A stretch of 64,000 bases of DNA from Alphaproteobacteria bacterium (GTDB lineage: Bacteria; Pseudomonadota; Alphaproteobacteria; Rs-D84), in contig JAFXVB010000013.1 of the NCBI GenBank assembly GCA_017534945.1, positions 10,640 through 74,639 on the forward strand, written 5' to 3'. The notes beneath the pieces were generated by a model that did no database searches, was not told the origin of the DNA, and saw nothing but the letters and a program-made list of their open reading frames with translations. A program made the translations under genes and the position numbers. Of the stretch, positions 1,008 to 52,731 are shown one piece after another; within the stretch, counting starts at the first letter, position 1; each line of letters begins with the position of its first letter.

Positions 1008-2498
1008 TTAACTCTTTTTGCTTTGTTTTTTCGACACTGCGGCTGAAATCCATTTTTGTGGTGCATGCCATGTTTTTTGACCTAAATCATGTGTCCATTT
1101 ACCAATATCAAATTCTTCGCCTGTGCCAACATCAGCCTTTTCGCCGGGGATGGGTAATTTGACCTTTCCCGCCGGTATTAATTTATCGATTTTTGGATTC
1201 AACACATAATAGTATAACAAGAATAAACCAAACATTGTCACCAAAAATGACCAACCGTTTTTCAAAAAGTCAAATGCACCCGGATGTTGTTCTTCTATTT
1301 GTGCTTTTTGAACCATAAAGCAATCTTTGAATGTATCGTCATCAACCAAACCGTCGGCATTCTTAGATTGCGCTTCGCATACAGAAAACGCATGCATCAC
1401 AGATTCTGTTGCTGGTGTTGTGTTATGTGTTATTTGTGTTTCAAATAGTGGTGGCAAAATTGCGGTATACCCATCAACCGGGCCCGGAAACATTTCGTCT
1501 GCACAGAAATAAACAATGGAAAACAACATAACAATTTTCAAAGATATAGATATAATTGATACCGCCGCTTTGACGACAATACCCAATGCTTTGCTGAATA
1601 ATCCTTTGGCAACCTTCCAAACGGTTTCGTATGCCAATGCTGCAATTAAAAATGGTAAAAATATGATAACGAAAACGACCTGAAATAATACAGAAAATAT
1701 TTGAAAGAATAAATCAAACCCAACAATTAAAAATGCAATTACCAATACTAATCCGGCAATCCATGTCATCATACCACCGCCCATGCCCATCCATGCATAG
1801 TTCATCAATGCAAATCCCCCAGCGGCACCCGCCAACATAACAGAATATAAATTGCCCAAAACGCACATAAATGAACCGCCAACCGGTGCCATTGCCCCAG
1901 ATAATGTTGCCGACCCCATAATTGCGGTACAATCCGCCGCCGTATTGACACCGGTTGCCGCCATAGACAATGCTGATCCAATATACAATATTGGCGAGAT
2001 TAAAATATCGGCCACAGTTCGCAATGATTCTGTCCCGCCCATACCCAACACACCGATTGCGGCACCTGCAAATAAAATACGTGCGCCTAATTTCCATACT
2101 GGATTAAACCATGTCATAAAATCCAGATTGTTAACAGCCGTTGAATACGATGCATTTTTTTTCATTTTATCCCACAGATATTTTGCCGCGGATAAAAACA
2201 TATAAATTGCAAATCCTGCGCCCATCAAAATCCATAGATTTTTAACGATTGCAATCCAAAACATTTCGGATGCTTGACCCAACATATTTAACAAATCAAC
2301 GACATGTTTACCCAAAAACATATTGCCAACATTTTCAATGCCGTCACTTGCGCCAATTGCATACATAAAACTGTCAACTGAAGTATATGTCAAAGCCGCC
2401 CCACCAATTGACGAAGATAAATACCAAATACCCAACCCCAGTGCAATCAGCACGAACACAATTTTTATGATAAGAGCAATAATTTTAGCTTTTAACAT
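1008..2498 (-). CDS. VirB6/TrbL-like polytopic membrane protein (496 aa)
   Basis: N-terminal TM segment, many long Gly/Ala-rich hydrophobic segments, a hydrophilic Cys-containing loop and a Lys-rich tail. It shares a DSFMY motif with 3721..4944. It sits in a tightly packed 4-gene operon, and virB8-10 are present elsewhere in the window. Confidence 0.6.
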   Translation of the reverse strand: MLKAKIIALIIKIVFVLIALGLGIWYLSSSIGGAALTYTSVDSFMYAIGASDGIENVGNMFLGKHVVDLLNMLGQASEMFWIAIVKNLWILMGAGFAIYMFLSAAKYLWDKMKKNASYSTAVNNLDFMTWFNPVWKLGARILFAGAAIGVLGMGGTESLRTVADILISPILYIGSALSMAATGVNTAADCTAIMGSATLSGAMAPVGGSFMCVLGNLYSVMLAGAAGGFALMNYAWMGMGGGMMTWIAGLVLVIAFLIVGFDLFFQIFSVLFQVVFVIIFLPFLIAALAYETVWKVAKGLFSKALGIVVKAAVSIISISLKIVMLFSIVYFCADEMFPGPVDGYTAILPPLFETQITHNTTPATESVMHAFSVCEAQSKNADGLVDDDTFKDCFMVQKAQIEEQHPGAFDFLKNGWSFLVTMFGLFLLYYYVLNPKIDKLIPAGKVKLPIPGEKADVGTGEEFDIGKWTHDLGQKTWHAPQKWISAAVSKKQSKKS

Positions 2499-2506
2499 TT
2501 TTTTAT

Positions 2507-3721
2507 TTATTCCGCATTTTTCTTAACCATTTTAAATAATTTTTTACCGCCATTAAAAGTATCTTTTGTTAATTGCATTATACTGTCGCCCAATTTTTCT
2601 CCAACTGGATTTTTACTTGCAGATACATTGAATATACCCAAAATCATATTGGTCACTTTTGGGATATTGTCATAAATAAATTCTAATACATACACCAAAA
2701 CAACAACGCTGGCTATGGTTAAATCGTGAAGTCCCGAAGAATCCAAATCAAATTCAAAAACCTGGCCACTGTTGATTGCATTCAATAATGCATCGAAACT
2801 ATCACCTGTGTTATCAACAAAGAATCGCATAAGTATAACCAAAATAACAGTATAAGTAATCACCGCCGCCCCCAGCGACACAATTGCACTGATTACATTT
2901 TTAATTTGATCAACACCGACATCTTTACCTAATTTTTTTGCCCACGCCAACCAATCAGGCATATCGCCATCTTTGATATCTTGAAACGATGCGGTCACCA
3001 AAGATAAAGGAAAGAAAAACGCAAACATCGCCATTGCAACAATAACATCTGCGAAATAACATAAAAATTTAAAGAACATCTTGAAAAATGTTATAAACAA
3101 ATACAGACCAATAATCGCAAGAATGAAATGTTTTATAATTATACCAATATTAAAAATTTTAGGCCAAGAAAACGCAGTATCCAACATCGCAACCCCAAGT
3201 TTCATATAATTTTGAAACATGGTAATTGTGACTTTGGCTGTATCAATAATTGCATCGCGTAATTGCGGACGAAACATACCACTATCTGCCTCACTAATTT
3301 CCACAGGTTTATATAACACTTGGTCATCAATATGGTCTGGGGTTTGTTTCAACATCGCCACAGAGTATGTTTGTGTTAAATATGCGACCGGTTCAAATGT
3401 TACCATACTGACAAAACGCGGTACCATAACACCCATACCTAAAAATGCCAATGCAAATAAAGAATTTTTTATAATTGTCCATACCGAATTTTTAAACCAA
3501 CCATCTTTGAATCCATCGGCAAATTTACCGGTTAAATTTTTCCATACAACACCAAATATATAAAACCCAAAAATAATACAGAACAATATAGTGCATATTA
3601 CAACAAAATCATTATATACTGCGGCGGCGGCCTGGGACACAACCAAAAACAGGCGGTCAAACACCGGACAAGACCAGCATTGTACGGCATTATCAATAAA
3701 AGCGTATCCCAAACTATTCAT
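2507..3721 (-). CDS. VirB6/TrbL-like polytopic membrane protein (404 aa), CWSCPVF class
   Basis: Multi-TM protein with N-terminal VQCWSCPVFDRL, a motif shared with 5005..6345. Its start codon overlaps the upstream stop by 1 nt (TAATG at 3719-3723). Confidence 0.55.
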   Translation of the reverse strand: MNSLGYAFIDNAVQCWSCPVFDRLFLVVSQAAAAVYNDFVVICTILFCIIFGFYIFGVVWKNLTGKFADGFKDGWFKNSVWTIIKNSLFALAFLGMGVMVPRFVSMVTFEPVAYLTQTYSVAMLKQTPDHIDDQVLYKPVEISEADSGMFRPQLRDAIIDTAKVTITMFQNYMKLGVAMLDTAFSWPKIFNIGIIIKHFILAIIGLYLFITFFKMFFKFLCYFADVIVAMAMFAFFFPLSLVTASFQDIKDGDMPDWLAWAKKLGKDVGVDQIKNVISAIVSLGAAVITYTVILVILMRFFVDNTGDSFDALLNAINSGQVFEFDLDSSGLHDLTIASVVVLVYVLEFIYDNIPKVTNMILGIFNVSASKNPVGEKLGDSIMQLTKDTFNGGKKLFKMVKKNAE

Positions 3722-4944
3722 TATTTGCCTTTTACATATTGTTTGATGTCTTTTACTTTTCCAGGAATTGCCTTTGCAATTCCAAATCCTGTTTTTGCAT
3801 CCTTTTTAACTTTGTTGTATAACTCTGTTCCGTTGTTTCCAACATATTCAGTAAGTTTTTCGCGTGTAATTTCAAATAATTTATTCATCAAAAAGAAAGT
3901 TAGTATACACGACAACCATAATACAGAATGTCCACCAAACCCGCCGCCCCCATTTGTAAATGCGTTATTATTCCATTGAAACAATGCGTGTATCAACGCC
4001 ATGTTTACACATAATATAAAAGCACATGCAATCATCGTTATAATGATTTGTTTTAATGCATCAATAATCCCGGAAAAAGCCGGCCAAATATCAAACCAAC
4101 CATCGTTCTTTTTTGCAACCCATGCAACCACATTAAACGGATATAAAATCAAAGCCATGCCAAAATTAAATATTGCCTGGATAATTAATAATGCCATAAA
4201 TATATTACACCCTGTAAATGTGACAACCAATAATATACCACTGATGATATCCATAAACCCATGACCATCGCGAATCATAAATGTTGCCAAACTTTGAAAT
4301 CCATTTGATATATATTGAAAACCGCGTTTGACAATAGCATTATTTGCGCCCGACAAAACATGCACAGGTTGAATTAAATAATTGCAAGATTCTGCATCCA
4401 ACCAACCTTGATTTAACAAATTTTCTGGACAATGTATTTCGCGTCCCTGAATTTCTGTTGATGTTAAATCAGTTGATTGTTGTATAATTGCAGAAGTATA
4501 AATCGACCCAAAACTTAAAAAAGGATTTATTAAATATTTTGCCATTTTATCTGGATGCAAAGGTAATAATACAATAACCGCAACCAAAGCGCGTACCGAT
4601 GGTTTTAAAAGATTTTCTATAATTTTTATACCACCGGTGTTATTGATACTGTCCCCAGGTTTAAATCCAAAAGTGGTAAGCCAAAATTTCGGTACATAAA
4701 GTTTGATTAAATACGAAGCAATATAAAATATAAAAAATCCCCAAACCAAAACATAAACTATACCATTACCATCACCAACAAAATATGCATATGTTCCATT
4801 TGCAACATACATAAAAGAATCTAAAACAATTGGAACCAACCCAGAAATATCCAACGCATCAATAATCGATGCACAAGCCGTATTCGGCGCAAAAGCACCA
4901 AATACCAAGAACAATCCACATAAAAAATTTTTTATAAATTTCAT
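3721..4944 (-). CDS. VirB6/TrbL-like polytopic membrane protein (407 aa)
   Basis: Signal-like N-terminus (FGAFAPNTACA) and multiple TM segments. The DSFMY motif is shared with 1008..2498. It is the first gene of the minus-strand operon. Confidence 0.55.
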   Translation of the reverse strand: MKFIKNFLCGLFLVFGAFAPNTACASIIDALDISGLVPIVLDSFMYVANGTYAYFVGDGNGIVYVLVWGFFIFYIASYLIKLYVPKFWLTTFGFKPGDSINNTGGIKIIENLLKPSVRALVAVIVLLPLHPDKMAKYLINPFLSFGSIYTSAIIQQSTDLTSTEIQGREIHCPENLLNQGWLDAESCNYLIQPVHVLSGANNAIVKRGFQYISNGFQSLATFMIRDGHGFMDIISGILLVVTFTGCNIFMALLIIQAIFNFGMALILYPFNVVAWVAKKNDGWFDIWPAFSGIIDALKQIIITMIACAFILCVNMALIHALFQWNNNAFTNGGGGFGGHSVLWLSCILTFFLMNKLFEITREKLTEYVGNNGTELYNKVKKDAKTGFGIAKAIPGKVKDIKQYVKGK

Positions 4945-5004
4945 GTTTAATATTTGTTATTGTAATTATAGAACATTTTGATAAAGTTATGCTATAATTA
5001 AAAT

Positions 5005-6345
5005 ATGAATTGGTTAAAAAAATTTTGGATAACATTTGTATCTTTTCTGCCTTTGACGGCGGGGGCAATTACACCGTTGGCAATTGGTGCGATTGGTGCG
5101 GGTGTGGGCATAATTGGATTTTCAATTTATCGCAGTGTTTCACCCGTAAATATTGTTGATGCGTTGTCGTTTTTTTCATCATGTTGGTCGTGCCAAGTTT
5201 TTTCAAATATCATTGGTGAAATGTCTATGTTGTTGCCAATTACATACAAGTATTTGGGCAATGTAATAATACCTGTGGCGATTGCATTAACTGCGATTTG
5301 GTTCGCGTGGCAAATTACACAAATTTATATTGGACCAAAAAAAGATGTTGCCGATATAACCGATGGTGACGGCGTGGCAAATCCTTGGTCTATTGGCGGA
5401 AAATTTGGTTCACATTTGATAAAGGTTTTATTTGTATGTGCATTATTGGCGGTACCATTACCGCGGATGATATCAAATATTGTTATTGAACCAATGTTTG
5501 ACATTGGTTTATCTTTGAATTATTCAATATCCGATATTGATTCTCGTGAAAATTATGCCGATTGTATAATCGCAACCGCAATAGCGGATCGCACCAGTAT
5601 AGAGGCTGATTATCAACAATCATCTATCAATGCGTTTTCACCAAGATTCCGTCATAACCTTACATGTCAAATTGCAAATGTGCATCAAATGACAGGATTG
5701 GGTATGACAATTGGTTGGACAATGTTAAATATGGCGTTCAATAATGATTACATGCATAAAATAATTCTGGATATACCAATCTTTCCAAATATTCCTTTGT
5801 TGGCAACCGGATTATTAGTATTGGTATTGTATTTTACGGCATTATTGCCAATACCATTATATTTCTTGGAAATATTTATAAAATTGGCAATAGATTTCAT
5901 TTTGTTGCCATTGACTTTATTAAGTTGGTTGTTTGGCGGATGGAAATTATTTCCAAATGGCAAACGCAATTTTCAACAAATCATAGATGATGTTATAAGT
6001 GGCACTTTGGGATTAGCAATGACGGGGATATTTTTAACTTTTTCAATTATGGTATTAAATACTGTGTTTGGAAATACTGGCGACACCACCACTATCCATG
6101 CGGCAATTGCCCAAAACGATTCGAAATTATTAATAGACGGCCTTATGAATACAACGGCGAACACATCGCTTATCACCATAATATTGCTGGGTATATTTAT
6201 GACAATGTTTATGAATATGATACCGGCATTGATAAAATCGCTGTTTAATATCACAATATCCGACAAATACTATCAAACCGCGAAAAAAGACCTGAATATT
6301 TTATGGGATGGTGCAAAAAAAATCTGGAAATCTGCAAAAAAATAA
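5005..6345 (+). CDS. VirB6/TrbL-like polytopic membrane protein (446 aa), CWSCQVF class, divergent from the other four
   Basis: Multi-TM protein with the SSCWSCQVFSNI motif, as in 2507..3721. TGCTATAAT (4990-4998) lies 6 nt upstream of the ATG and there is no Shine-Dalgarno. Confidence 0.55.
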   Translation: MNWLKKFWITFVSFLPLTAGAITPLAIGAIGAGVGIIGFSIYRSVSPVNIVDALSFFSSCWSCQVFSNIIGEMSMLLPITYKYLGNVIIPVAIALTAIWFAWQITQIYIGPKKDVADITDGDGVANPWSIGGKFGSHLIKVLFVCALLAVPLPRMISNIVIEPMFDIGLSLNYSISDIDSRENYADCIIATAIADRTSIEADYQQSSINAFSPRFRHNLTCQIANVHQMTGLGMTIGWTMLNMAFNNDYMHKIILDIPIFPNIPLLATGLLVLVLYFTALLPIPLYFLEIFIKLAIDFILLPLTLLSWLFGGWKLFPNGKRNFQQIIDDVISGTLGLAMTGIFLTFSIMVLNTVFGNTGDTTTIHAAIAQNDSKLLIDGLMNTTANTSLITIILLGIFMTMFMNMIPALIKSLFNITISDKYYQTAKKDLNILWDGAKKIWKSAKK

Positions 6346-7724: not shown

Positions 7725-8594
7725 TCCAAACTCCATATCGCGCAATTTTTCGGCGCGTGGCGAAATTTTTGATACAGATGTTTGTAATTGTTCGATATCT
7801 GTTTGCGCCAAATTGAAATGTTGTGAAACCTTTGCTGCGCGGTCACTAAGTCGCGACAGATCGCCCAATAACAAATCTAACTCTTTCTTTATTTGACCGG
7901 CAACGCGTTTTATTTTTATGTCGGCCAATACCGCGCGAATCGTATTCAATGTTGCCCACAGGGTCGCTGGGGATACAATAAACACTTTTTTACGGGCCGC
8001 GTATTCAATGGTGTTTGGAAATTCAGTATGTAATTCTTCGAATATAGATTCTGATGCAATAAACATCATCGCACTTTCTGCGGTCACCCCTGGAATAATA
8101 TATTTTTCAGCGATTGCATCAATATGTTTTCGCACATCTAATTCAAATTGTTTTTTTGCGCCAATATCATTTTTATCGTTCAAAATACGATTATAACTTT
8201 CCAGCGGAAATTTACTATCGATAATCATATCGCCCGGCGGATAAGGTAATCTTATAACGCAATCTGGGCGCACACCGGTTGATAACACAGTTTGAAATCC
8301 GTATGTTTCTGGGGGCATAATATCACGCACTAAATCTTCTAATTGGCGTTCGCCAAATGTTCCGCGTGCCTGTTTGTTTCCCATTAAAATATCTTTGAAA
8401 TTCGCGATGTCCGTACTAATATTCTTCAATTCCAAAGCATTTTGACTCAACATCCCCAACCTTTCTGCCAACCGTTCGCGGAGCCTTGTGTTATCTTCGC
8501 GCAGGGGCGATAAATCCACAGTGTTCTTACGGAAAATTAACACCAAAAGCAAAATTACAATAATAATCAAAAGCGGTAAAATATAGGTTGTCAT
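7716..8594 (-). CDS. rmuC: DNA recombination protein RmuC (short form, about 292 aa)
   Basis: N-terminal TM, a coiled-coil region and an RmuC nuclease-like core (GTFGERQLEDLV..., DSKFPLESY). The start at 8594 has an AAAGGA SD. The ORF-track start at 8618 is the alternative. Confidence 0.85.
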   Translation of the reverse strand: MTTYILPLLIIIVILLLVLIFRKNTVDLSPLREDNTRLRERLAERLGMLSQNALELKNISTDIANFKDILMGNKQARGTFGERQLEDLVRDIMPPETYGFQTVLSTGVRPDCVIRLPYPPGDMIIDSKFPLESYNRILNDKNDIGAKKQFELDVRKHIDAIAEKYIIPGVTAESAMMFIASESIFEELHTEFPNTIEYAARKKVFIVSPATLWATLNTIRAVLADIKIKRVAGQIKKELDLLLGDLSRLSDRAAKVSQHFNLAQTDIEQLQTSVSKISPRAEKLRDMEFGED

Positions 8595-8648
8595 TTGAAA
8601 ATCCTTTGCTAAAATCAAGAATATAACAAATTATAAAGGATTTTATAA

Positions 8649-9152
8649 ATGTTGCAAATGAAACTTTGTGGTGACCCAATTTTGCGTACAGAATGCACGC
8701 CGGTTGAAAAAATCGATGACAAATTATTGGAAACATTGGATACAATGGTTGATATGATGCGCGCACAAAGTGGCGTGGGGTTGGCCGCGCCCCAGGTTGG
8801 TATCACACAAAGGTTTCTGGTTATGATGACACCGGACGATGAAAAAATTTTCAAAATGATAAACCCGGTGATTACATCACGCAGTGAAAAAACAGTCGTA
8901 ATGGAAGAAGGTTGCCTGTCGGTTCTTGGGGGCGATAATTTACCTGTATATGCAAATGTTTCACGTCCCGAAAGTATAAATGTTCAATGGACGGACGAAA
9001 ATGGCGAAACACAATCTGCGGAAATGTCGGGCGTGCCGGCGCGAATTGTGCAACATGAAACAGATCACCTGGACGGGAAATTATTTATAGATTATTTGTC
9101 GGGTGCCCGTAGAGAGATGGTTATGCGTAAAGTGCGGAGGCATAAAAAATGA
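8649..9152 (+). CDS. def: peptide deformylase
   Basis: GLAAPQVG, EGCLS and HETDHLDG metal-binding motifs. Confidence 0.95.
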   Translation: MLQMKLCGDPILRTECTPVEKIDDKLLETLDTMVDMMRAQSGVGLAAPQVGITQRFLVMMTPDDEKIFKMINPVITSRSEKTVVMEEGCLSVLGGDNLPVYANVSRPESINVQWTDENGETQSAEMSGVPARIVQHETDHLDGKLFIDYLSGARREMVMRKVRRHKK

Positions 9153-9955
9153 AACTGATATTAATGGGGACAAACGATTTTGTTGTGCCGATTTTTGAAT
9201 CTCTGCGCAAAAAACACGATGTTTTATCGGTGTTCACACGTGCGCCTGCACCCGCAGGGCGTAGGCATGTTTTAACACCGTCACCTGTGCAGTTGTGGGC
9301 GGAAAGCCACAATTTGCCTGTTCATAATTCAATTAAAGAATTTGATAATGCGGGGGCTGATTTTGTTGTTGTAATGTCGTATGGCGTGATTTTGCCTGAT
9401 AATGTTTTGGCCCGGGGAAATTTTATAAATATTCACCCAAGTGCATTACCTAAATATCGTGGCCCATCACCAATACGCAGTGCGTTAAAAAATGGTGATA
9501 CAAAATCGGCGGTTTGCCTGATGAAAATTGTGCATGATTTGGATGCTGGGGACATTTATATGTGTCGTGAATTTGATATTGATATAAACGACACAAATAA
9601 AACTGTGGAAAATAAAGTTGATGAAATCGCAATTGAAATGCTGGACGAATTTTTTGCGTCCCCAGAAAAATATAAACCAATTGCACAAAGTGGTACACCA
9701 ATTATCAGTCATAAATTCACTGGTGCTGATGAAATAATCGATTGGAAAATGTCGCCAATGGAAATTCATAATTTGGTGCGCGCATTGGGTTGTGGTCGCA
9801 CAAAAATAAACGGTGTGGATGTCAAAATTTTGGAAACAAAAGTCGAAAACGACACATTGAAAATTTTACAAATTCAACCGGCGGGTAAACGCCCAATGGA
9901 TTGGAAAAGTTTTGTAAATGGTTTACATGGTGCAGAAATAAAATTTGGGGAATAA
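9149..9955 (+). CDS. fmt: methionyl-tRNA formyltransferase (short, 268 aa)
   Basis: ATGA overlap with def. IHPSALPKYRG motif and a C-terminal Fmt domain. def-fmt synteny is conserved. Confidence 0.9.
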   Translation: MKLILMGTNDFVVPIFESLRKKHDVLSVFTRAPAPAGRRHVLTPSPVQLWAESHNLPVHNSIKEFDNAGADFVVVMSYGVILPDNVLARGNFINIHPSALPKYRGPSPIRSALKNGDTKSAVCLMKIVHDLDAGDIYMCREFDIDINDTNKTVENKVDEIAIEMLDEFFASPEKYKPIAQSGTPIISHKFTGADEIIDWKMSPMEIHNLVRALGCGRTKINGVDVKILETKVENDTLKILQIQPAGKRPMDWKSFVNGLHGAEIKFGE

Positions 9956-9958
9956 GAA

Positions 9959-10195
9959 ATGCAAAATAAATGGAAAATTATCAAACATGATAATCAGGCA
10001 AAGGAAAAACAACAAATTTGTTTTTATTGCAAACACTTTTTCTGCACAAAATACCACTATCCAAGAACTCGAATGGTTTGTTCTGGATGTTTGCCACAAT
10101 GGGAATGGTTGTATTTTTTAATGCGTAATGTGTCGGCAACTGATACATGCAAGAAATTTACATTACATAAAATATACGACAAAGGACAAAGATAA
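9959..10195 (+). CDS. small Cys-rich protein A (78 aa; CFYC...CSGC)
   Basis: Starts 3 nt after fmt with a GGGGA SD. Contains two CxxC pairs. It is less clearly related to the three ORFs downstream. Confidence 0.4.
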   Translation: MQNKWKIIKHDNQAKEKQQICFYCKHFFCTKYHYPRTRMVCSGCLPQWEWLYFLMRNVSATDTCKKFTLHKIYDKGQR

Positions 10196-10238
10196 AAAAT
10201 TTATGCGGAGAGGGATAAAAAGCATAAAAGGAAACGAA

Positions 10239-10469
10239 ATGGATGCGAAAGATTATGGTAAAACGGCTGTTTGCGGTGTAAATGGTGACGGTGTTATTAT
10301 CTCGTCTTATAACTGTAAATGTCCATGTTTAAATTGTGTTGGATGTAAAAATCAGGAAGACAAAACCAAATGTGGGTGGCGGCATGTATTGGAAATAAAT
10401 CCATGCACAAATGAAGACATGCGTGAAATGCTGTGCATAAATTGTAAAAAAGTAGAACAACAAAGATAA
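10239..10469 (+). CDS. small Cys-rich protein B (76 aa), paralogue family
   Basis: AAGGA SD 8 nt upstream (alternative ATG at 10203). Motif CGVNGDGVIISSYNCKCPCLNCVGC and a C-terminal CINC. Confidence 0.55.
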   Translation: MDAKDYGKTAVCGVNGDGVIISSYNCKCPCLNCVGCKNQEDKTKCGWRHVLEINPCTNEDMREMLCINCKKVEQQR

Positions 10470-10483
10470 ATAAAGAGGCTAAA

Positions 10484-10729
10484 ATGCCAAAGCAAACAGA
10501 CCAAGAAAAATATTGTAAATATATGCAACAAAATGTTGTTGTTTCTGATTATAATAATCGTGGTAAATGCACTTGTTTAAAATGTAATCAGTCTGAATGT
10601 ACCAAAGAATGCAGTGCAAATGTACATTCTGTACGTATATCAAGAAAATGCAGTTCTGGTAGAGTTTGCTGGATACGTGGCAATTGCAATGAATGCATAA
10701 ATACAACATTATATAGCAATCAAAGGTAA
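10484..10729 (+). CDS. small Cys-rich protein C (81 aa), paralogue family
   Basis: AAGAGG SD. Motif CKYMQQNVVVSDYNNRGKCTCLKCNQSEC and a C-terminal CNEC. Confidence 0.55.
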   Translation: MPKQTDQEKYCKYMQQNVVVSDYNNRGKCTCLKCNQSECTKECSANVHSVRISRKCSSGRVCWIRGNCNECINTTLYSNQR

Positions 10730-10732
10730 AAA

Positions 10733-10939
10733 ATGACAAATTTTATAAATCCATTATGCGGATTACACGCGTCTAATGTTGTTATATCAAATTACAACAA
10801 TAACGGATTGTGCCGGTGTCTGGGCTGTGTTGGAATTTTTTGCCAGGTCTGTCAGCAATACAAGGATTTATTAGACGAGGCAGATAAAAACAATCAAATA
10901 AAATTGGAACGCTGTATTGCATGCATGAAACAAAAATAA
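10733..10939 (+). CDS. small Cys-rich protein D (68 aa), paralogue family
   Basis: Starts 3 nt after ORF C. Motif CGLHASNVVISNYNNNGLCRCLGCVGIFC and a C-terminal CIAC. Confidence 0.55.
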   Translation: MTNFINPLCGLHASNVVISNYNNNGLCRCLGCVGIFCQVCQQYKDLLDEADKNNQIKLERCIACMKQK

Positions 10940-10955
10940 AAATCTGGGGTAAAAA

Positions 10956-11699
10956 ATGGCGCGTTATAAAGTTGAACTTGAATATGACGGAACAAATTTA
11001 ATTGGTTGGCAGGAAAACCAAGATGGCCCATCTGTGCAATCAATAATGATGGACGCAATTGAAAAATTTTGTGGTTTGCGCCCAACCATATTTGGTGCGG
11101 GACGCACAGATGCGGGTGTTCATGCGATTCGTATGACGGCACATTTTGATTTGGATGTGGAACATTCGCCATTTACCGTTATGAATGCATTGAATTTTTA
11201 TTTATTGAACGAACCTGTGGCGGTATTGTCGTGTGAAAAAGTTGATGAAGATTTTTCTGCACGTTTTTCATGTATTGCGCGTCATTATAAATACGTTGTT
11301 TTGAATCGCGCGGCACGACCGGTTTTGGAAAAAAACAAAGTATATTGGGTGCCACAAAAGTTAAATGTTGATGCAATGCGTGTGGCTGCAAAAAAGTTAA
11401 TAGGTAATCATGATTTTACATCTTTTCGGGCAAGTCAATGCCAAGCAAAAAGCCCGATAAAGACACTTGATAAACTTGATATAAAACTTGATGGGGATTA
11501 CATAATATTTGAACTTTCTGCGCGTTCATTTTTACATCACATGGTACGAAATATTGTTGGAACATTGATTGAAATTGGGCTTGGTAAACCATACGATATT
11601 GATGATGTTTTAAATGCCAAAGATCGTCGCGCCGCGGGTCCAACCGCACCGGCGTGTGGTCTGTATTTTATTCGTGCGGATTATTCCACCAACGATTAA
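10956..11699 (+). CDS. truA: tRNA pseudouridine(38-40) synthase
   Basis: GAGRTDAGVHA catalytic-Asp motif and typical TruA length. Confidence 0.95.
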   Translation: MARYKVELEYDGTNLIGWQENQDGPSVQSIMMDAIEKFCGLRPTIFGAGRTDAGVHAIRMTAHFDLDVEHSPFTVMNALNFYLLNEPVAVLSCEKVDEDFSARFSCIARHYKYVVLNRAARPVLEKNKVYWVPQKLNVDAMRVAAKKLIGNHDFTSFRASQCQAKSPIKTLDKLDIKLDGDYIIFELSARSFLHHMVRNIVGTLIEIGLGKPYDIDDVLNAKDRRAAGPTAPACGLYFIRADYSTND

Positions 11700-13638
11700 A
11701 CGGTGTATGCTGAATCGCGCCGTTTTCATAAATTACAAATCCGCCGCGCAAAATTTTATGTGCACAATGTGGTGCATATATGTCAAAGTAAGACACAATA
11801 AAATCTATATTTTTATCATGACATAAATTTACAAAATGTTTTTGCAAAGGTTTGAATTTTTGAATATATGCAACTGTAAAGTTTTTTGATTCATAAATAC
11901 AAATTCCATCTGGGCATTTGCGTCGTGTATTTGTATCATCTGGTGATTCGCCATTTAATTTACGAAACGCATTAAATGCAAAATAATGATTTGATGCGCG
12001 TGCTTTATTAAATTCTAATTTGCCGTCATATACCATGCCAATCAATTCATGGTCTGGTGTTATATAAAATACTGGGTGTGGTCGTACTGCAATAATTGTG
12101 GTTCCAATCAAAATACAAATTCCAAACAAAATGTAATTTGCATAACGATAAATCCAAAGTGCAGAATCTTTAACTGGTCTTATAAAAATCAAACATAATA
12201 ATCCAATAATAAAAATTGCAAAGGCTGTATTTGGAATATGTGGCATTATTAAATTTGCACTGGGCATATCCGCTATATTTTGTGCAATATGTAATGAAAA
12301 GTTATAAATATACATTGCTAAATTCAATAATAAATGGCCACCAAACATGGCGCAAATTGTACCAAGTATAACAAGTGGCATAATCGCAAAAGAAAAAATC
12401 GGTAATAATATCAAATTTCCAAGCAAACTGTATAATGGTACAGAACTGAAATGCATTGCAATAAAAGGCAAGGTAAATATAGTTGCCACAATTGCGGTCA
12501 TGATTGCCACATAAAAACCATTTTTAATTTTTATCAATATACTTTTATTTGTTCCAAAATTTTTATCACCAAAAAACCAAATCAATCCAAATATGGCGGC
12601 AAAAGATAATTGAAAGCCAGCCTGGGTCACAAAATGAGGATTAATGAAAAACAGAATCAAAAATGCGATACATATATTCCGCATTGATATTGCCGCACGC
12701 CCAACCAATAACGCAACAAATAATAATGATGTCATCAAAAACGCACGCAAAGTCGCAACACCAAACCCAGATATACAAACATATCCCGTAAGAAAAATCC
12801 ATGCGCAAATTGTTGCAATAATTCGCGCCGGCACACGTCGTGTGATGAAACCAATACTGCGAAATATTAAATAAAACAAAGCAAACAACCAACCGCCAAT
12901 CAATGTCATGTGAAAGCCGCTGATTGACCAAATATGCCCGATACCTGCGGTTGTCCAAATTTTCTTGTCACTTTTCGGCACCGCGTTTTTATATCCCAAA
13001 ACCAAACCATCGGTTAAAAAAGAATTTGCTTTGTTATGAATAGTGCTGCGCAATCCATTTATACTGGCCGAGTTTTTATGCTGTAAAACCTCATAATCAA
13101 CAATAAATCCTGTGGCGGTTAAATTGTTAAAATATGCCCATCGCGCATAATCAAAAGATTCTGGGGCTTCCATTGATGCCGGCGGAAACAGCGAAACTTT
13201 TGCATGAATGACATCGCCAATGCGCAAAATGTTTTCATCGTCTGGAACGGTCAATCGTATGTTTGCGTCCCGCGACAATCCAATGTCCACCGCCGGCACA
13301 GATAATAAAACGCGCATCTTTTCCGGCGCAATATCTATATCTTTAATTTGTGCAGTAATAATTTTATCACGCACAGAATATTTTAATATCGGGGTTGATA
13401 CAAAATTTTGCGTATAACAAACCGCATACAAAAACCCACACAGAACCAGCATCGCGCCACGCAAAACAAAATTCATTTTGCCAAATAATAAAATAATCAT
13501 ACCCGCGACAAATGCAATAAATGGGTATGAAACATGTGGTTCATTTGGCATAATAAAATACACAGCCGCGCCAAACGCCAATAACATTGGTACGAACAAG
13601 AATCTGTTTTTAATTTGATTGTGAATAAATTCATACAT
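11668..13638 (-). CDS. comEC: ComEC/Rec2 family competence membrane protein
   Basis: 656 aa with many TM segments and a competence-domain core (GLxHxxxISGxHxxL-like: GIGHIWSISGFHMTLIGG). Convergent 32-nt overlap with truA. Confidence 0.85.
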   Translation of the reverse strand: MYEFIHNQIKNRFLFVPMLLAFGAAVYFIMPNEPHVSYPFIAFVAGMIILLFGKMNFVLRGAMLVLCGFLYAVCYTQNFVSTPILKYSVRDKIITAQIKDIDIAPEKMRVLLSVPAVDIGLSRDANIRLTVPDDENILRIGDVIHAKVSLFPPASMEAPESFDYARWAYFNNLTATGFIVDYEVLQHKNSASINGLRSTIHNKANSFLTDGLVLGYKNAVPKSDKKIWTTAGIGHIWSISGFHMTLIGGWLFALFYLIFRSIGFITRRVPARIIATICAWIFLTGYVCISGFGVATLRAFLMTSLLFVALLVGRAAISMRNICIAFLILFFINPHFVTQAGFQLSFAAIFGLIWFFGDKNFGTNKSILIKIKNGFYVAIMTAIVATIFTLPFIAMHFSSVPLYSLLGNLILLPIFSFAIMPLVILGTICAMFGGHLLLNLAMYIYNFSLHIAQNIADMPSANLIMPHIPNTAFAIFIIGLLCLIFIRPVKDSALWIYRYANYILFGICILIGTTIIAVRPHPVFYITPDHELIGMVYDGKLEFNKARASNHYFAFNAFRKLNGESPDDTNTRRKCPDGICIYESKNFTVAYIQKFKPLQKHFVNLCHDKNIDFIVSYFDIYAPHCAHKILRGGFVIYENGAIQHTPFNRWWNNPHE

Positions 13639-13676: not shown

Positions 13677-13991
13677 TTATTTTCCAAATATAAAGTCTGG
13701 GTTTGTCCCCAATGCGATAATTGCGTCTATATCATCGTTATCACATGTTTTTTGTCGAATAACCTTTCCGCATTTTTGGCATTTATGTGTAATTACAAAC
13801 TTTCCGTTTCCCTGTTCAACCGATACAGGTTCCATCATGCCGCCACAATCACTTTGACGGTCGCCCGGGTTGTTATCAACATGTCGTGACCATAAACATT
13901 TTGGGCAATGGTTCGTATATCCATTGCCCAAAACCGTTGCGCCACAATGTGCGCATGTAAAATCTTCAACACGTTTTGTAAATTGTTTCAT
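13677..13991 (-). CDS. RNHCP domain protein (zinc-ribbon)
   Basis: FTCAHCGATV...YTNHCPKCLWSRHVD matches the RNHCP signature. A second CxxC pair is present (CQKCG). Confidence 0.75.
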   Translation of the reverse strand: MKQFTKRVEDFTCAHCGATVLGNGYTNHCPKCLWSRHVDNNPGDRQSDCGGMMEPVSVEQGNGKFVITHKCQKCGKVIRQKTCDNDDIDAIIALGTNPDFIFGK

Positions 13992-13994
13992 GAA

Positions 13995-14243
13995 TTAAAT
14001 ACCCAATGCATCACGATACATTTTGGTTAATTCGTCGGCTTCGTCCAATTCATCTGGATCCAATTTACGCAAACGAATCATTTGGCGAATATATTTTGGG
14101 TCATATCCCGCGGATTTAGCCTCGCTATAAATTTCTTTGATATCAGCGGCAATATTCGCAGTATCTTCGTTTAATTTTTCAATTCTTTCAATAATAGATA
14201 ATAATTGTTGGTTATCAAAAGCACCATGATTTGCATTTTTCAT
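13995..14243 (-). CDS. gapR: GapR/DUF2312 (UPF0335) nucleoid-associated protein
   Basis: NQQLLSIIERIEKLNED...IKEIYSEAKSAGYDPKYIRQMIRLRKLDPDE is the typical alphaproteobacterial DUF2312 sequence. I use the ATG at 14243 rather than the longer ORF-track start at 14303. Confidence 0.8.
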   Translation of the reverse strand: MKNANHGAFDNQQLLSIIERIEKLNEDTANIAADIKEIYSEAKSAGYDPKYIRQMIRLRKLDPDELDEADELTKMYRDALGI

Positions 14244-14326
14244 GTTTGTTTTCCCCTTGTTTATTTTGCAATAATATAATATATTATCTATGACAAAAAT
14301 CAAGAAAAAGCAGGGGGGGAGTTTTT

Positions 14327-52395: not shown

Positions 52396-52731
52396 TTAAT
52401 GATGTGCGACTATGTGCAAAATAACACTAACGATAAACAACACAGACACAACCCCCAATATTATTTTCTGGGGTTTATGATTTTCATTTTTGCTGTGGCA
52501 TACATCACAACCGCAATGACAATCGCGTATAACCAATAACCATGATAATCCTAACATCAATGCAGAAAACACAAACAACCATGGTTCAATCCATTCCGGC
52601 ATAAAATAGGACGAGTGTGCGATTTCCGGCGTAAACAAACCGATAATCGACAAAACAATTGGCAACACACAGCAAAACAGGTGCGGCAACACACTTGCAA
52701 TAATTCCAATTTTAATAGCTTTGTTTTTCAT
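52396..52731 (-). CDS. small Cys/His-rich membrane protein (MerC-like?), 111 aa
   Basis: 3-4 TM segments, PHLFCCVLP in TM1, a CHCGCDVCH cluster and a C-terminal HIVAHH. The MerC resemblance is an impression only. Confidence 0.5.
   Translation of the reverse strand: MKNKAIKIGIIASVLPHLFCCVLPIVLSIIGLFTPEIAHSSYFMPEWIEPWLFVFSALMLGLSWLLVIRDCHCGCDVCHSKNENHKPQKIILGVVSVLFIVSVILHIVAHH

What the first reader, a model, noticed from the sequence alone, without database searches (positions are those of the whole stretch)
9959..10939. Tandem array of four small Cys-rich ORFs (three clear paralogues) inserted between fmt and truA
Four back-to-back ORFs of 68-81 aa lie on the same strand as def-fmt and truA. 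Spacers are 3-43 nt and each has an SD-like sequence. ORFs B, C and D share an ordered motif, C-x5-6-(V/N)V(I/V)(I/V)S-x-YN-x0-3-C-x-C-L-x-C-x2-4-C, and all end with a CxxC pair. The instances are CGVNGDGVIISSYNCKCPCLNCVGC...CINC, CKYMQQNVVVSDYNNRGKCTCLKCNQSEC...CNEC and CGLHASNVVISNYNNNGLCRCLGCVGIFC...CIAC. ORF A has CFYC...CSGC. Each protein has 8-10 Cys in about 70 residues. They have no signal peptide and there is no adjacent modifying enzyme or transporter. Candidate roles are zinc-ribbon or metal-binding proteins, redox proteins, or precursor peptides whose maturation genes lie elsewhere. I do not recognise the family.
Basis: seen in the sequence. Interest (0 to 1): 0.65.

Follow-up and report, generated by a model that had tools for sequence, protein, structure and literature searches.

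The report
Swappable small cysteine-rich genes between fmt and truA
Four real, conserved genes for tiny cysteine-rich (probably metal-binding) proteins of two unannotated families sit inside the housekeeping def-fmt-truA operon of an uncultured, genome-reduced gut alphaproteobacterium; related species carry zero to four of them and swap single genes, but what the proteins do is unknown.

Summary
ORFs A (9959-10195), B (10239-10469), C (10484-10729) and D (10733-10939) lie on the + strand between fmt and truA, each with an SD-like sequence.

- **Families.** B, C and D are paralogues of an unannotated family with eight invariant Cys. A belongs to a second, unrelated family with four invariant Cys.
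- **Coding status.** All four have orthologues under purifying selection (dN/dS 0.19-0.36; fmt 0.17, truA 0.13).
- **Host.** Uncultured gut Alphaproteobacteria of order Rs-D84 (Ca. Enterousia and relatives, genomes about 0.75-1 Mb).
- **Insertion.** In other Alphaproteobacteria and some Rs-D84 relatives, fmt and truA abut. The genes are therefore a lineage-specific insertion.
- **Variation.** The site holds 0-4 cassettes in varying combinations.
- **Exchange.** Single cassettes are about 96% identical between genomes whose flanks are 74-85% identical, which indicates recent lateral exchange.
- **Expression.** Every gene ends in an SD-like purine run, a stop codon and 0-16 nt before the next ATG, which points to translational coupling.
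- **Known families.** No Pfam, NCBIfam, PHROG, PADLOC or PDB relative was found, and no maturase, transporter or integrase is nearby.

Most likely they are small cytoplasmic metal-stabilised (Zn, possibly Fe-S) binding proteins. Metallothionein-like buffering is the main rival. Function is inferred, not shown.

The parts
8588..8615 (+). Promoter-like site (TTGTCA-16-TAAAAT with TG) upstream of def. Candidate promoter for the whole def-fmt-A-B-C-D-truA unit.
   Evidence: No + strand promoter-like site between 9772 and 11569, and no terminator-like site inside the array. This is a consensus scan only.
8649..9152 (+). def (peptide deformylase), first gene of the operon.
   Evidence: (PF01327 on syntenic orthologues).
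9149..9955 (+). fmt (methionyl-tRNA formyltransferase). Its last codons, GGGGAA-TAA, provide the SD for cassette A.
9959..10195 (+). Cassette A: 78-aa protein of the 'A-type' family, pattern C-x2-C-x4-C-x11-C-x22-C. Four Cys are invariant across the wider A-like set.
   Evidence: Orthologues in L004, L009 and L010. 42 clusters, all unnamed. dN/dS 0.26. 96.2% nt identity to L004's A, against 81-85% for the neighbouring genes. Not related to B-D. The AF2 model failed (pLDDT 41).
10196..10238 (+). A-B spacer / B leader. It contains an in-frame ATG at 10203 and the AAGGA SD of B. The same leader precedes B in genomes without A (L006, L008).
   Evidence: B starts directly at M-D/E-x-K-D in L001 and L005, so 10239 is taken as the start.
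10239..10469 (+). Cassette B: 76 aa, 8-Cys family. It has the conserved non-Cys patch W47-R48-H-V-L-E-x-N-P-C-T-N-E-D-M-R-E and a hypervariable loop at 37-44.
   Evidence: 22 invariant columns in 14 orthologues; dN/dS 0.19. AF2 pLDDT 72.8: beta-hairpin 9-20 plus helices 46-75.
10484..10729 (+). Cassette C: 81 aa, 8-Cys family paralogue (10 Cys).
   Evidence: 96.6% nt identity to L003's C while fmt, B and truA are 74-79%. The high-identity block 10505-10735 is sharply bounded.
10733..10939 (+). Cassette D: 68 aa, 8-Cys family paralogue with the conserved helix Y-K-D-L-L-D-E-A-D-K-N.
   Evidence: 96.6% nt identity to L007's D, against 74-77% for flanks.
10956..11699 (+). truA (tRNA pseudouridine synthase A), last gene of the unit. 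It is directly adjacent to fmt in outgroups.

Best explanation
A, B, C and D are genuine protein-coding accessory 'cassettes' inserted into the ancestral def-fmt-truA operon of a genome-reduced gut alphaproteobacterium (order Rs-D84, Ca. Enterousia group).

**Expression (inferred).** The cassettes have no recognisable promoter or terminator of their own. They appear to be transcribed from the def promoter. Translation looks coupled: each gene, fmt included, ends in a purine-rich SD-like run, then TAA, then 0-16 nt before the next ATG.

**The proteins (inferred).** B, C and D are about 70-aa cytoplasmic proteins of a new family. Eight invariant Cys are read as two Cys4 metal centres, most likely Zn, with Fe-S not excluded. 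These would hold together a beta-hairpin, a Cys-knuckle and a helix. A belongs to a second, unrelated family with one Cys4 site.

**Function (inferred).** Each subfamily keeps its own conserved non-Cys surface between Cys6 and Cys7. I therefore infer metal-stabilised mini-domains that each bind a specific macromolecular partner, as adaptors, inhibitors or regulators, rather than bulk metal sinks.

**Dynamics.** The site gains, loses and reorders cassettes. Single cassettes have recently moved between species. This probably happens by recombination anchored in the conserved flanks and the shared 15-17-nt junction sequences.

**Shown versus inferred.** Shown: coding status, family structure, insertion, variability, exchange and junction architecture. 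Inferred: metal binding, partner binding and the recombination route.
For: **Coding status**
- Orthologues keep every Cys.
- dN/dS is 0.26 (A), 0.19 (B), 0.36 (C) and 0.34 (D), against 0.17 for fmt and 0.13 for truA.

**Family**
- Eight invariant Cys plus invariant N25 in 46 sequences.
- 34 representatives at E<=1e-3 among 1.84 billion proteins.
- Every context examined lies between fmt and truA.

**Insertion**
- fmt and truA are adjacent in outgroups and in L026 and L032-L034.

**Variability**
- Observed arrays: A-B-C-D, A-B, A-B-C, A-B-D-X, B-C-D, B-D, B-C, B alone, A alone, three A-like genes, E-A, E-D, and none.

**Exchange**
- C is 96.6% identical to L003's C, D 96.6% to L007's D and A 96.2% to L004's A, with neighbouring genes at 74-85%.
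- B, C and D lie on one 896-nt unitig identical to the window, so the mosaic is not an assembly chimera.

**Coupling**
- Junction table.
- No internal promoter-like or terminator-like sites.

**Specific surfaces**
- B orthologues conserve W47, R48, E52, P55, T57, N58, E59, D60, R62 and E63.
- D orthologues conserve the YKDLLDEADKN helix.

**Link between the two families**
- P0053 is a single polypeptide at the same site, with an A-like N-terminal half and a D-like C-terminal half. The A-like half scores 38 bits against a profile that excludes it; the best of 900 shuffles scores 11.8 bits.

**Fold**
- AF2 model of B: hairpin plus helices, pLDDT 72.8.
Against: - There is no experimental evidence of translation or metal binding.
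- RNA support is one 269-nt contig at about 90% identity across the B-C junction in a polyA RNA-seq run. Four metatranscriptomes gave no coverage of the array, but also almost none of the rest of the operon.
- The AF2 model of B has only moderate confidence, and I could not inspect its coordinates for site geometry.
- The model of A failed.
- No partner has been identified.
- The constant position next to translation genes could mean a translation-linked role rather than an accessory one.
- CxC/CxxC density and copy-number variation also fit a metallothionein-like role.
Confidence: 0.5

Rival explanations
1. Metallothionein-like metal buffering or sequestration. The Cys-rich proteins would soak up Zn, Cu or Cd. 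Copy number and cassette spread would respond to metal load in the livestock gut.
For: - 10-13% Cys with CxC and CxxC motifs, for example CKCPCLNCVGC in B.
- Copy number varies from 0 to 4.
- Near-identical cassettes occur across species, consistent with a recent strong selective agent.
- Runs holding the sequence are bovine, sheep and other gut metagenomes.
- From general knowledge: tandem amplification is typical of metallothionein loci (CUP1, smtA), and livestock feed is supplemented with Zn and Cu.
Against: - No match to metallothionein models in Pfam or NCBIfam, or to SmtA in a PDB profile search.
- Many non-Cys residues, including charged and aromatic ones, are strongly conserved, and regular secondary structure is predicted.
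- The paralogues are old (about 30% identity), not recent amplicons.
- A-type cassettes have only 4-5 conserved Cys in 65-80 aa.
- No metal-sensing regulator is adjacent, and the genes sit in a housekeeping operon.
Confidence: 0.2
2. Small Fe-S proteins. The eight invariant Cys would ligate two [4Fe-4S] clusters or similar, acting as ferredoxin-like electron carriers or as a stand-alone SPASM/twitch-like module in this strictly fermentative anaerobe.
For: - Eight invariant Cys.
- The host lineage is anaerobic and lacks respiration (PMC12306168).
- The first Cys is followed by a predicted beta-hairpin and then a Cys cluster. From memory only, this recalls the SPASM motif.
- One member gives a weak Fer4_20 hit (E 0.017).
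Against: - No CxxCxxCxxxCP ferredoxin motif.
- No significant Fer4 or SPASM hit in Pfam or NCBIfam.
- Loop lengths between the Cys vary between subfamilies (x2-4 and x2-8), which is more typical of structural Zn sites.
- An accessory gene that is swapped laterally is odd for a core electron carrier.
Confidence: 0.12
3. Precursor peptides (RiPPs) matured by enzymes encoded elsewhere, as with prochlorosins.
For: - The genes are small and Cys-rich and occur as several paralogues in tandem.
- From general knowledge, some RiPP precursors do lie far from their maturase.
Against: - No precursor family HMM matches.
- No radical-SAM/SPASM, LanM, YcaO, peptidase or export gene lies within about 6-10 kb in more than 12 loci.
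- The only radical-SAM gene in the window is HemW (231 bits against a 205-bit cut-off).
- Conservation covers the whole protein, and the N-terminus, not a C-terminal core, is the variable part.
- The host genomes are about 0.75-1 Mb and lack most biosynthesis (PMC12306168).
Confidence: 0.03
4. Conflict-related accessory proteins, such as orphan immunity or antitoxin-like proteins, or anti-phage or anti-defence factors. Diversity and exchange would be driven by antagonists.
For: - Presence/absence polymorphism, reshuffling and very recent inter-species transfer of single cassettes occur in otherwise streamlined, syntenic genomes.
- Strain-level variants lacking A or D appear in contigs from run X26.
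- Each subfamily has its own conserved surface.
Against: - No hit to PADLOC defence models or PHROGs.
- No relatives on viral contigs.
- No cognate toxin or mobile-element gene is nearby.
- This is a special case of the partner-binding explanation rather than a distinct mechanism.
Confidence: 0.12

Closest known systems
One-domain zinc-finger micro-proteins of Haloferax volcanii (C(P)XCG proteins; PMC6562870, PMC10716476, PMC11241148)
   Same: Both are stand-alone proteins of about 80 aa or less whose only recognisable feature is a set of Cys pairs predicted to hold Zn. Both have many paralogues per genome or lineage, and most have unknown partners.
   Different: - The motif differs: C-x13-17-C-x-C-x2-C-x2-4-C-x2-8-C...C-x2-C with eight Cys, not two C(P)XCG knuckles.
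- These are bacterial, confined to one locus, arranged as an exchangeable array, and have no sequence relationship to the Haloferax proteins.
- PMC11241148 also warns, in its title, that several such predicted proteins do not bind Zn.
Bacterial metallothionein SmtA/BmtA (Pfam PF02069; PDB 1JJD; from general knowledge)
   Same: Both are small cytoplasmic proteins with Cys density of 10-16% and CxC/CxxC motifs. SmtA also has a zinc-finger-like hairpin-plus-helix core. Gene amplification is known for smtA.
   Different: - There is no HMM or PDB profile match.
- There are no conserved His ligands.
- The non-Cys surface is strongly conserved.
- No SmtB-type regulator is present.
- The paralogues are ancient rather than amplified copies.
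Integron gene-cassette arrays
   Same: Both are series of promoterless small genes in one orientation at one site. Both are expressed from an upstream promoter, with cassette number, order and content varying between relatives and single cassettes moving laterally.
   Different: - There is no integrase.
- There are no attC sites: spacers are only 0-43 nt.
- The site is inside an essential housekeeping operon.
- The cassettes come from just two protein families.
Orphan immunity-gene arrays (for example acquired interbacterial defence clusters of gut Bacteroidales; from general knowledge)
   Same: Both are tandem small cytoplasmic-protein genes that vary between strains and are exchanged between gut species.
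   Different: No recombinase, mobile element, toxin gene or known immunity family is present, so this is a functional analogy only.

Membership tests
Bacterial metallothionein (SmtA/BmtA, Pfam PF02069) | Sequence match to the family model or to the solved structure | tested here: not met
   There is no Pfam hit at E<=10 for A-D and none among 46 members at E<=5. A profile search of PDB returned only NrfB at E 1.9.
Bacterial metallothionein (SmtA/BmtA, Pfam PF02069) | High Cys content with CxC/CxxC motifs in a small cytoplasmic protein | tested here: met
   B has 10 Cys in 76 aa, C has 10 in 81 and D has 8 in 68. CxC and CxxC motifs are present. No hydrophobic N-terminal stretch is seen by eye; no signal-peptide predictor was run.
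Bacterial metallothionein (SmtA/BmtA, Pfam PF02069) | Multi-metal thiolate cluster and high metal capacity | not testable with these tools
   This needs metal analysis of recombinant protein.
RiPP precursor peptides (SCIFF/ranthipeptide, lanthipeptide, NHLP/Nif11 types) | Match to a precursor family model | tested here: not met
   NCBIfam gives no family at E<=10 for A-D.
RiPP precursor peptides (SCIFF/ranthipeptide, lanthipeptide, NHLP/Nif11 types) | Maturase, protease or exporter in the neighbourhood | tested here: not met
   The neighbours in more than 12 loci are HAD, RmuC, def, fmt, truA, ComEC, CTP synthase, RNHCP, GapR and pyruvate kinase. The only radical-SAM gene in the window is HemW. 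The rest of the genome was not available.
RiPP precursor peptides (SCIFF/ranthipeptide, lanthipeptide, NHLP/Nif11 types) | Conserved leader plus variable core | tested here: not met
   The N-terminus before the first Cys varies in length and sequence. The Cys scaffold and the C-terminal half are conserved.
Integron cassette array | attC recombination site after each cassette | tested here: not met
   Inter-gene spacers are 0-43 nt and consist of SD, stop and start.
Integron cassette array | Adjacent IntI integrase | tested here: not met
   None is present in 12-16 kb around the site in any locus.
Integron cassette array | Promoterless cassettes read from a common upstream promoter | tested here: inconclusive
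   No promoter-like or terminator-like site lies inside the array, and promoter-like sites lie upstream of def. This rests on a consensus scan only.
C(P)XCG zinc-finger micro-proteins | Two C(P)XCG knuckles | tested here: not met
   The motifs here are C-G, C-x-C-L-x-C and C-x2-C without the P-x-C-G signature.
C(P)XCG zinc-finger micro-proteins | Zinc binding | not testable with these tools
   This needs biochemistry.
SPASM/twitch auxiliary Fe-S domain (PF13186, TIGR04085) | Match to the domain model | tested here: not met
   There is no hit in Pfam or NCBIfam.
SPASM/twitch auxiliary Fe-S domain (PF13186, TIGR04085) | C-x9-15-G-x4-C ... C-x2-C-x5-C-x3-C ... C spacing, with a hairpin after the first Cys | tested here: inconclusive
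   A hairpin after the first Cys is predicted, but the spacing differs: G-x-C-x-C-x2-C-x2-4-C-x2-8-C. The family motif is quoted from memory.
B-box / cross-brace zinc fingers (PF22586 ANCHR-like B-box) | Match at or above the Pfam gathering score | tested here: not met
   4 of 46 members give sub-threshold hits, the best at E 0.017. D scores 11 bits against a 27-bit cut-off.

The most novel reading that the evidence does not exclude
The fmt-truA junction of Rs-D84 bacteria may be an integrase-free cassette system. Tiny metalloprotein genes from two families would be inserted, deleted, reordered and passed between species in register, through their shared SD-stop-start junctions and the conserved essential flanks. 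Each cassette would neutralise or recognise a different antagonist (toxin, phage or partner-cell factor). That would make it a minimal 'immunity locus' hard-wired into an essential operon of a genome-reduced symbiont.
Probability: 0.15. Interest if true: 0.8.

Novelty: new variant of a known kind. Interest (0 to 1): 0.55.

Why it matters
Rs-D84/Enterousia bacteria are widespread, uncultured gut organisms of livestock. Their genomes are about 0.75-1 Mb, and they are thought to depend on partner cells (PMC12306168).

In such streamlined, highly syntenic genomes, one site keeps acquiring, reshuffling and laterally exchanging small genes under purifying selection. That makes it a strong pointer to a function that matters in the gut.

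The finding has three consequences:
- It defines two protein families absent from current libraries.
- It gives a clean natural example of cassette turnover without integrase or attC sites.
- It shows how a conserved protein C-terminus can be dictated by the SD of the next gene.

If the proteins prove to be metal buffers, they would bear on Zn and Cu supplementation in livestock. If they are partner-specific binders, they could reveal what these bacteria interact with.

Tried and rejected
- **Family libraries.** Pfam, NCBIfam, PHROGs and PADLOC scans of A-D and of the fusion proteins found nothing significant.
- **PDB by sequence.** A profile search found only a chance NrfB hit at E 1.9.
- **Fold search.** The B model against PDB and BFVD gave no match below E 3.
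- **AF2 model of A.** With 42 sequences it failed (pLDDT 41), so no fold search was done for A.
- **A versus B-D.** Profile-profile comparison shows no relationship.
- **A-like profile search.** It was run to reach relatives outside the clade or in phages. It returned only unnamed proteins of similar length; their origin was not examined.
- **Viral contigs.** Scans for B and for A found none.
- **First genome scan.** It was repeated with B orthologues.
- **Fusions.** P0047's N-terminus and the 101-aa ORF of L027 looked A-like by eye. They are not supported by a profile that excludes them. Only P0053 is.
- **A-to-B frameshift.** I considered a programmed frameshift because B's frame is open upstream into A. 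I rejected it because A's own frame is conserved to its stop, and the shared upstream peptide reflects nucleotide conservation.
- **HNH nuclease.** I considered this because of S-E-H-N-x2-G-x-C-x-C in some members. I rejected it because the His is not conserved (Y, F, H or E) and there is no Pfam hit.
- **Metatranscriptomes.** Coverage was too sparse over the whole operon to judge expression.
- **Raw reads.** Runs X21 and X22 held nothing at 95% identity.
- **Megablast with an identity filter.** It missed the exchanged blocks because the HSPs ran into diverged flanks. A sliding-window count replaced it.
Full report
**1. The observation**

The window has four + strand ORFs between fmt (9149-9955) and truA (10956-11699):

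| ORF | Coordinates | Length | Cys |
|---|---|---|---|
| A | 9959-10195 | 78 aa | 6 |
| B | 10239-10469 | 76 aa | 10 |
| C | 10484-10729 | 81 aa | 10 |
| D | 10733-10939 | 68 aa | 8 |

Spacers are 3, 43, 14, 3 and 16 nt, and each start is preceded by an SD-like purine run. No promoter-like site on the + strand and no terminator-like site lies inside the array. Promoter-like sites lie upstream of def.

**2. They are real genes**

- A profile of B, C and D found 20 homologues in the word-indexed search.
- The exhaustive HMM search of 1.84 billion representatives found 34 at E<=1e-3.
- All hits are 59-139 aa and all are unnamed or 'hypothetical protein'.
- In an alignment of 46 members, the invariant positions (B numbering) are C12, N25, C28, C30, C33, C45, C66 and C69. 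V19 and S22 are at least 90% conserved. A further Cys lies near position 36 in most members.
- A has its own orthologues: 42 clusters. Its invariant residues are C21, C24, C29, C41, W48, L51, L54, M55, C64 and F67. The second Cys of 'CSGC' is not conserved.
- Nei-Gojobori dN/dS medians are 0.26 (A), 0.19 (B), 0.36 (C) and 0.34 (D). For fmt the median is 0.17 and for truA 0.13, over the same genomes.
- A-like and BCD-like profiles are unrelated (hhalign probability 0.4%).

**3. Where it comes from**

Genome-collection hits are MAGs labelled uncultured Alphaproteobacteria or proteobacterium (several with RUG isolate names), plus Candidatus Enterousia onthequi. Runs holding the sequence are gut metagenomes, including bovine and sheep gut.

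GTDB order Rs-D84, which includes Enterousia, has genomes of about 0.75-1.0 Mb. They lack respiration and most biosynthesis, and the bacteria are proposed to depend on partner cells (PMC12306168).

**4. It is an insertion, and the site is variable**

In about 45 other alphaproteobacterial loci (truA <=54% identical), fmt and truA are mostly 23-52 nt apart. In four Rs-D84-like loci (L026, L032-L034) they overlap or are 10 nt apart.

Every family member whose context I could see lies between fmt and truA, in the same orientation. Content varies as follows:

| Locus | Cassettes between fmt and truA |
|---|---|
| Window | A-B-C-D |
| L004 | A-B |
| L009 | A-B-C |
| L010 | A-B-D-X |
| L011 | B-C-D |
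| L007 | B-D |
| L001-L003 | B-C |
| L005, L006, L008 | B |
| L020-L022 | A only |
| L023 | three A-like genes |
| L017, L024 | A-like + D-like |
| L028, L031 | a shorter 'E' type + A or D |
| L013 (partial copy L014) | one fused gene, A-like + D-like (P0053) |
| L016, L025 | single D-like gene |
| L029/L030 | single A-like gene |
| L027 | single 101-aa Cys-rich ORF, A-likeness not supported |

P0053's A-like half scores 38 bits against a profile that excludes it. The best of 900 shuffles scores 11.8 bits. The HMMs find no other copy in the 64-kb window.

**5. Junction architecture**

Every gene in the unit, fmt included, ends in an SD-like purine run, then a stop (mostly TAA), then 0-16 nt before the next ATG:
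- fmt ends in GGGGAA.
- The cassettes end in CAAAGA or CAAAGG.

This explains the conserved C-terminal G-E of fmt and Q-R/Q-K of the cassettes. It also argues for translational coupling along def-fmt-cassettes-truA.

The same 15-17-nt junction (CAAAGGTAAAAAATGAC) occurs at B>D, C>D, C>truA and B>truA joints in different genomes. That provides microhomology for in-register gain and loss. This last step is my inference.

**6. Recent exchange of single cassettes**

| Window cassette | Best match | nt identity | Neighbouring genes, same pair |
|---|---|---|---|
| C | L003's C | 96.6% | 74-79% (fmt, B, truA) |
| D | L007's D | 96.6% | 74-77% |
| D | L011's D | 86.8% | 66-78% |
| A | L004's A | 96.2% | 80-85% |

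- The C block (10505-10735) is 95-100% identical in 60-nt windows and drops to 45-70% on both sides.
- Over 9-17 kb of aligned sequence, these are the longest stretches at >=93% identity in 100-nt windows. They are specific to the pair compared.
- B, C and D lie on one 896-nt unitig identical to the window in runs X1-X3, so the mosaic is not an assembly chimera.
- X1-X3 give identical unitig sets and may be one data set deposited three times.
- A contig from run X26 joins fmt to B without A, and C to truA without D. Lower-depth contigs in X1 also skip all or part of the array.

**7. What the proteins look like**

- No Pfam, NCBIfam, PHROG or PADLOC family matches.
- Across the 46 members, the only recurring Pfam signal is a sub-threshold ANCHR-like B-box hit in 4 of them (best E 0.017).
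- There is no PDB sequence relative.
- AF2 for B, using the 46-sequence alignment, gives pLDDT 72.8. It predicts a beta-hairpin (residues 9-20), a Cys-rich loop and helices at 46-75 that carry the C-terminal CxxC.
- Foldseek finds nothing in PDB or BFVD.
- AF2 for A failed.
- Beyond the Cys, B orthologues conserve W47, R48, E52, P55, T57, N58, E59, D60, R62 and E63, while loop 37-44 is hypervariable.
- D orthologues conserve an acidic helix, YKDLLDEADKN.

**8. Interpretation**

Eight invariant Cys, in a roughly 70-aa protein of an anaerobe that has no hydrophobic N-terminal stretch by eye (no signal-peptide predictor was run), are best read as two Cys4 metal centres. A would have one. Variable loop lengths between ligands and subfamily-specific conserved surfaces favour structural metal sites supporting partner-specific binding modules.

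- **Metallothionein-like buffering** is the main rival. CxC density, copy-number variation and the livestock setting speak for it.
- **Fe-S binding** cannot be excluded.
- **The RiPP-precursor idea is unlikely.** No precursor model matches. No maturase lies near any locus. The only radical-SAM gene in the window is HemW. The conservation pattern is the reverse of leader plus core.
- **The array is not an integron.** There are no attC sites and no integrase.
- **The fixed position may need no link to translation.** Exchange that depends on flank homology would confine cassettes to this site. A translation-linked role is still not excluded.

**9. Expression evidence is thin**

One 269-nt contig, about 90% identical, spans the end of B and the start of C in a polyA RNA-seq run of a gut sample. 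Four gut metatranscriptomes that contain this organism's rpoB/rpoC region give almost no coverage of the whole operon. They therefore say nothing either way.

**10. Verdict**

The finding is two new, lineage-restricted families of small Cys-rich proteins that form a dynamic, laterally exchanged cassette site inside an essential operon of genome-reduced gut bacteria. Function is unknown. Metal-stabilised binding modules are my best estimate, at about 0.5.

Noticed in passing
window 13677-13991 (-): This is another small Cys-rich protein of 104 aa with 8 Cys. It has an RNHCP domain (PF12647, E 1e-29). It is conserved next to the GapR-like gene (13995-14303, PF10073) in most of the related loci examined.
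   Followed up: partly
window 52396-52731 (-): This is a 111-aa membrane-like ORF with a CC pair in the first hydrophobic segment and CHCGCDVCH near the end. It has only a weak, sub-threshold similarity to the mercuric ion transporter MerT (E 2.5e-4, 21 bits against a 150-bit cut-off). It may be a metal-handling membrane protein.
   Followed up: partly
window 1008-6345 (ORFs 1008-2498 -, 2507-3721 -, 3721-4944 -, 5005-6345 +): These four large ORFs (496, 404, 407 and 446 aa) have hydrophobic N-termini and no Pfam hit. Genes of similar size without Pfam hits occupy the corresponding upstream positions in related contigs L001-L003. They may be lineage-specific envelope proteins.
   Followed up: partly
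window 10196-10238: The 43-nt A-B spacer (ATGCGGAGAGGGATAAA..AGCATAAAAGGAAACGAA) is conserved in genomes where B follows fmt directly (L006, L008). It holds an in-frame ATG at 10203 that would add 12 residues (MRRGIKSIKGNE) to B. Several database entries are called from that start. Which start is used is undecided.
   Followed up: partly
L003 6015-6710 (-); window 10479-10739 (-): Long antisense ORFs overlie the cassettes: 231 aa in L003 and 86 aa in the window. They run across gene boundaries into truA. I take them as chance products of the purine-rich sense strand. Their conservation was not tested.
   Followed up: no
window 11668-11699: truA (+) and the ComEC-like gene (11668-13638, -) overlap convergently by 32 nt. 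A terminator-like hairpin at 11643-11660 lies inside the end of truA.
   Followed up: no
runs X1, X2, X3 on window 9500-11400: Three runs from three different study codes give the same unitig lengths (1336, 226, 896 and 721 nt) and nearly the same depths. They may be the same data deposited more than once, so they are not independent support.
   Followed up: no
L010 6152-6445: A fourth cassette ('X', 97 aa) of the 8-Cys family carries a roughly 30-residue insertion before the C-terminal CxxC. It ends in TGA overlapping the truA start. This shows how far the variable region can expand.
   Followed up: no
L068, L082, L089, L093 (other Alphaproteobacteria): A few outgroup loci also have 0.4-1.2 kb between fmt and truA, holding unrelated ORFs (for example a 119-aa protein in L068). 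The fmt-truA junction may be a recurrent insertion point beyond Rs-D84.
   Followed up: no
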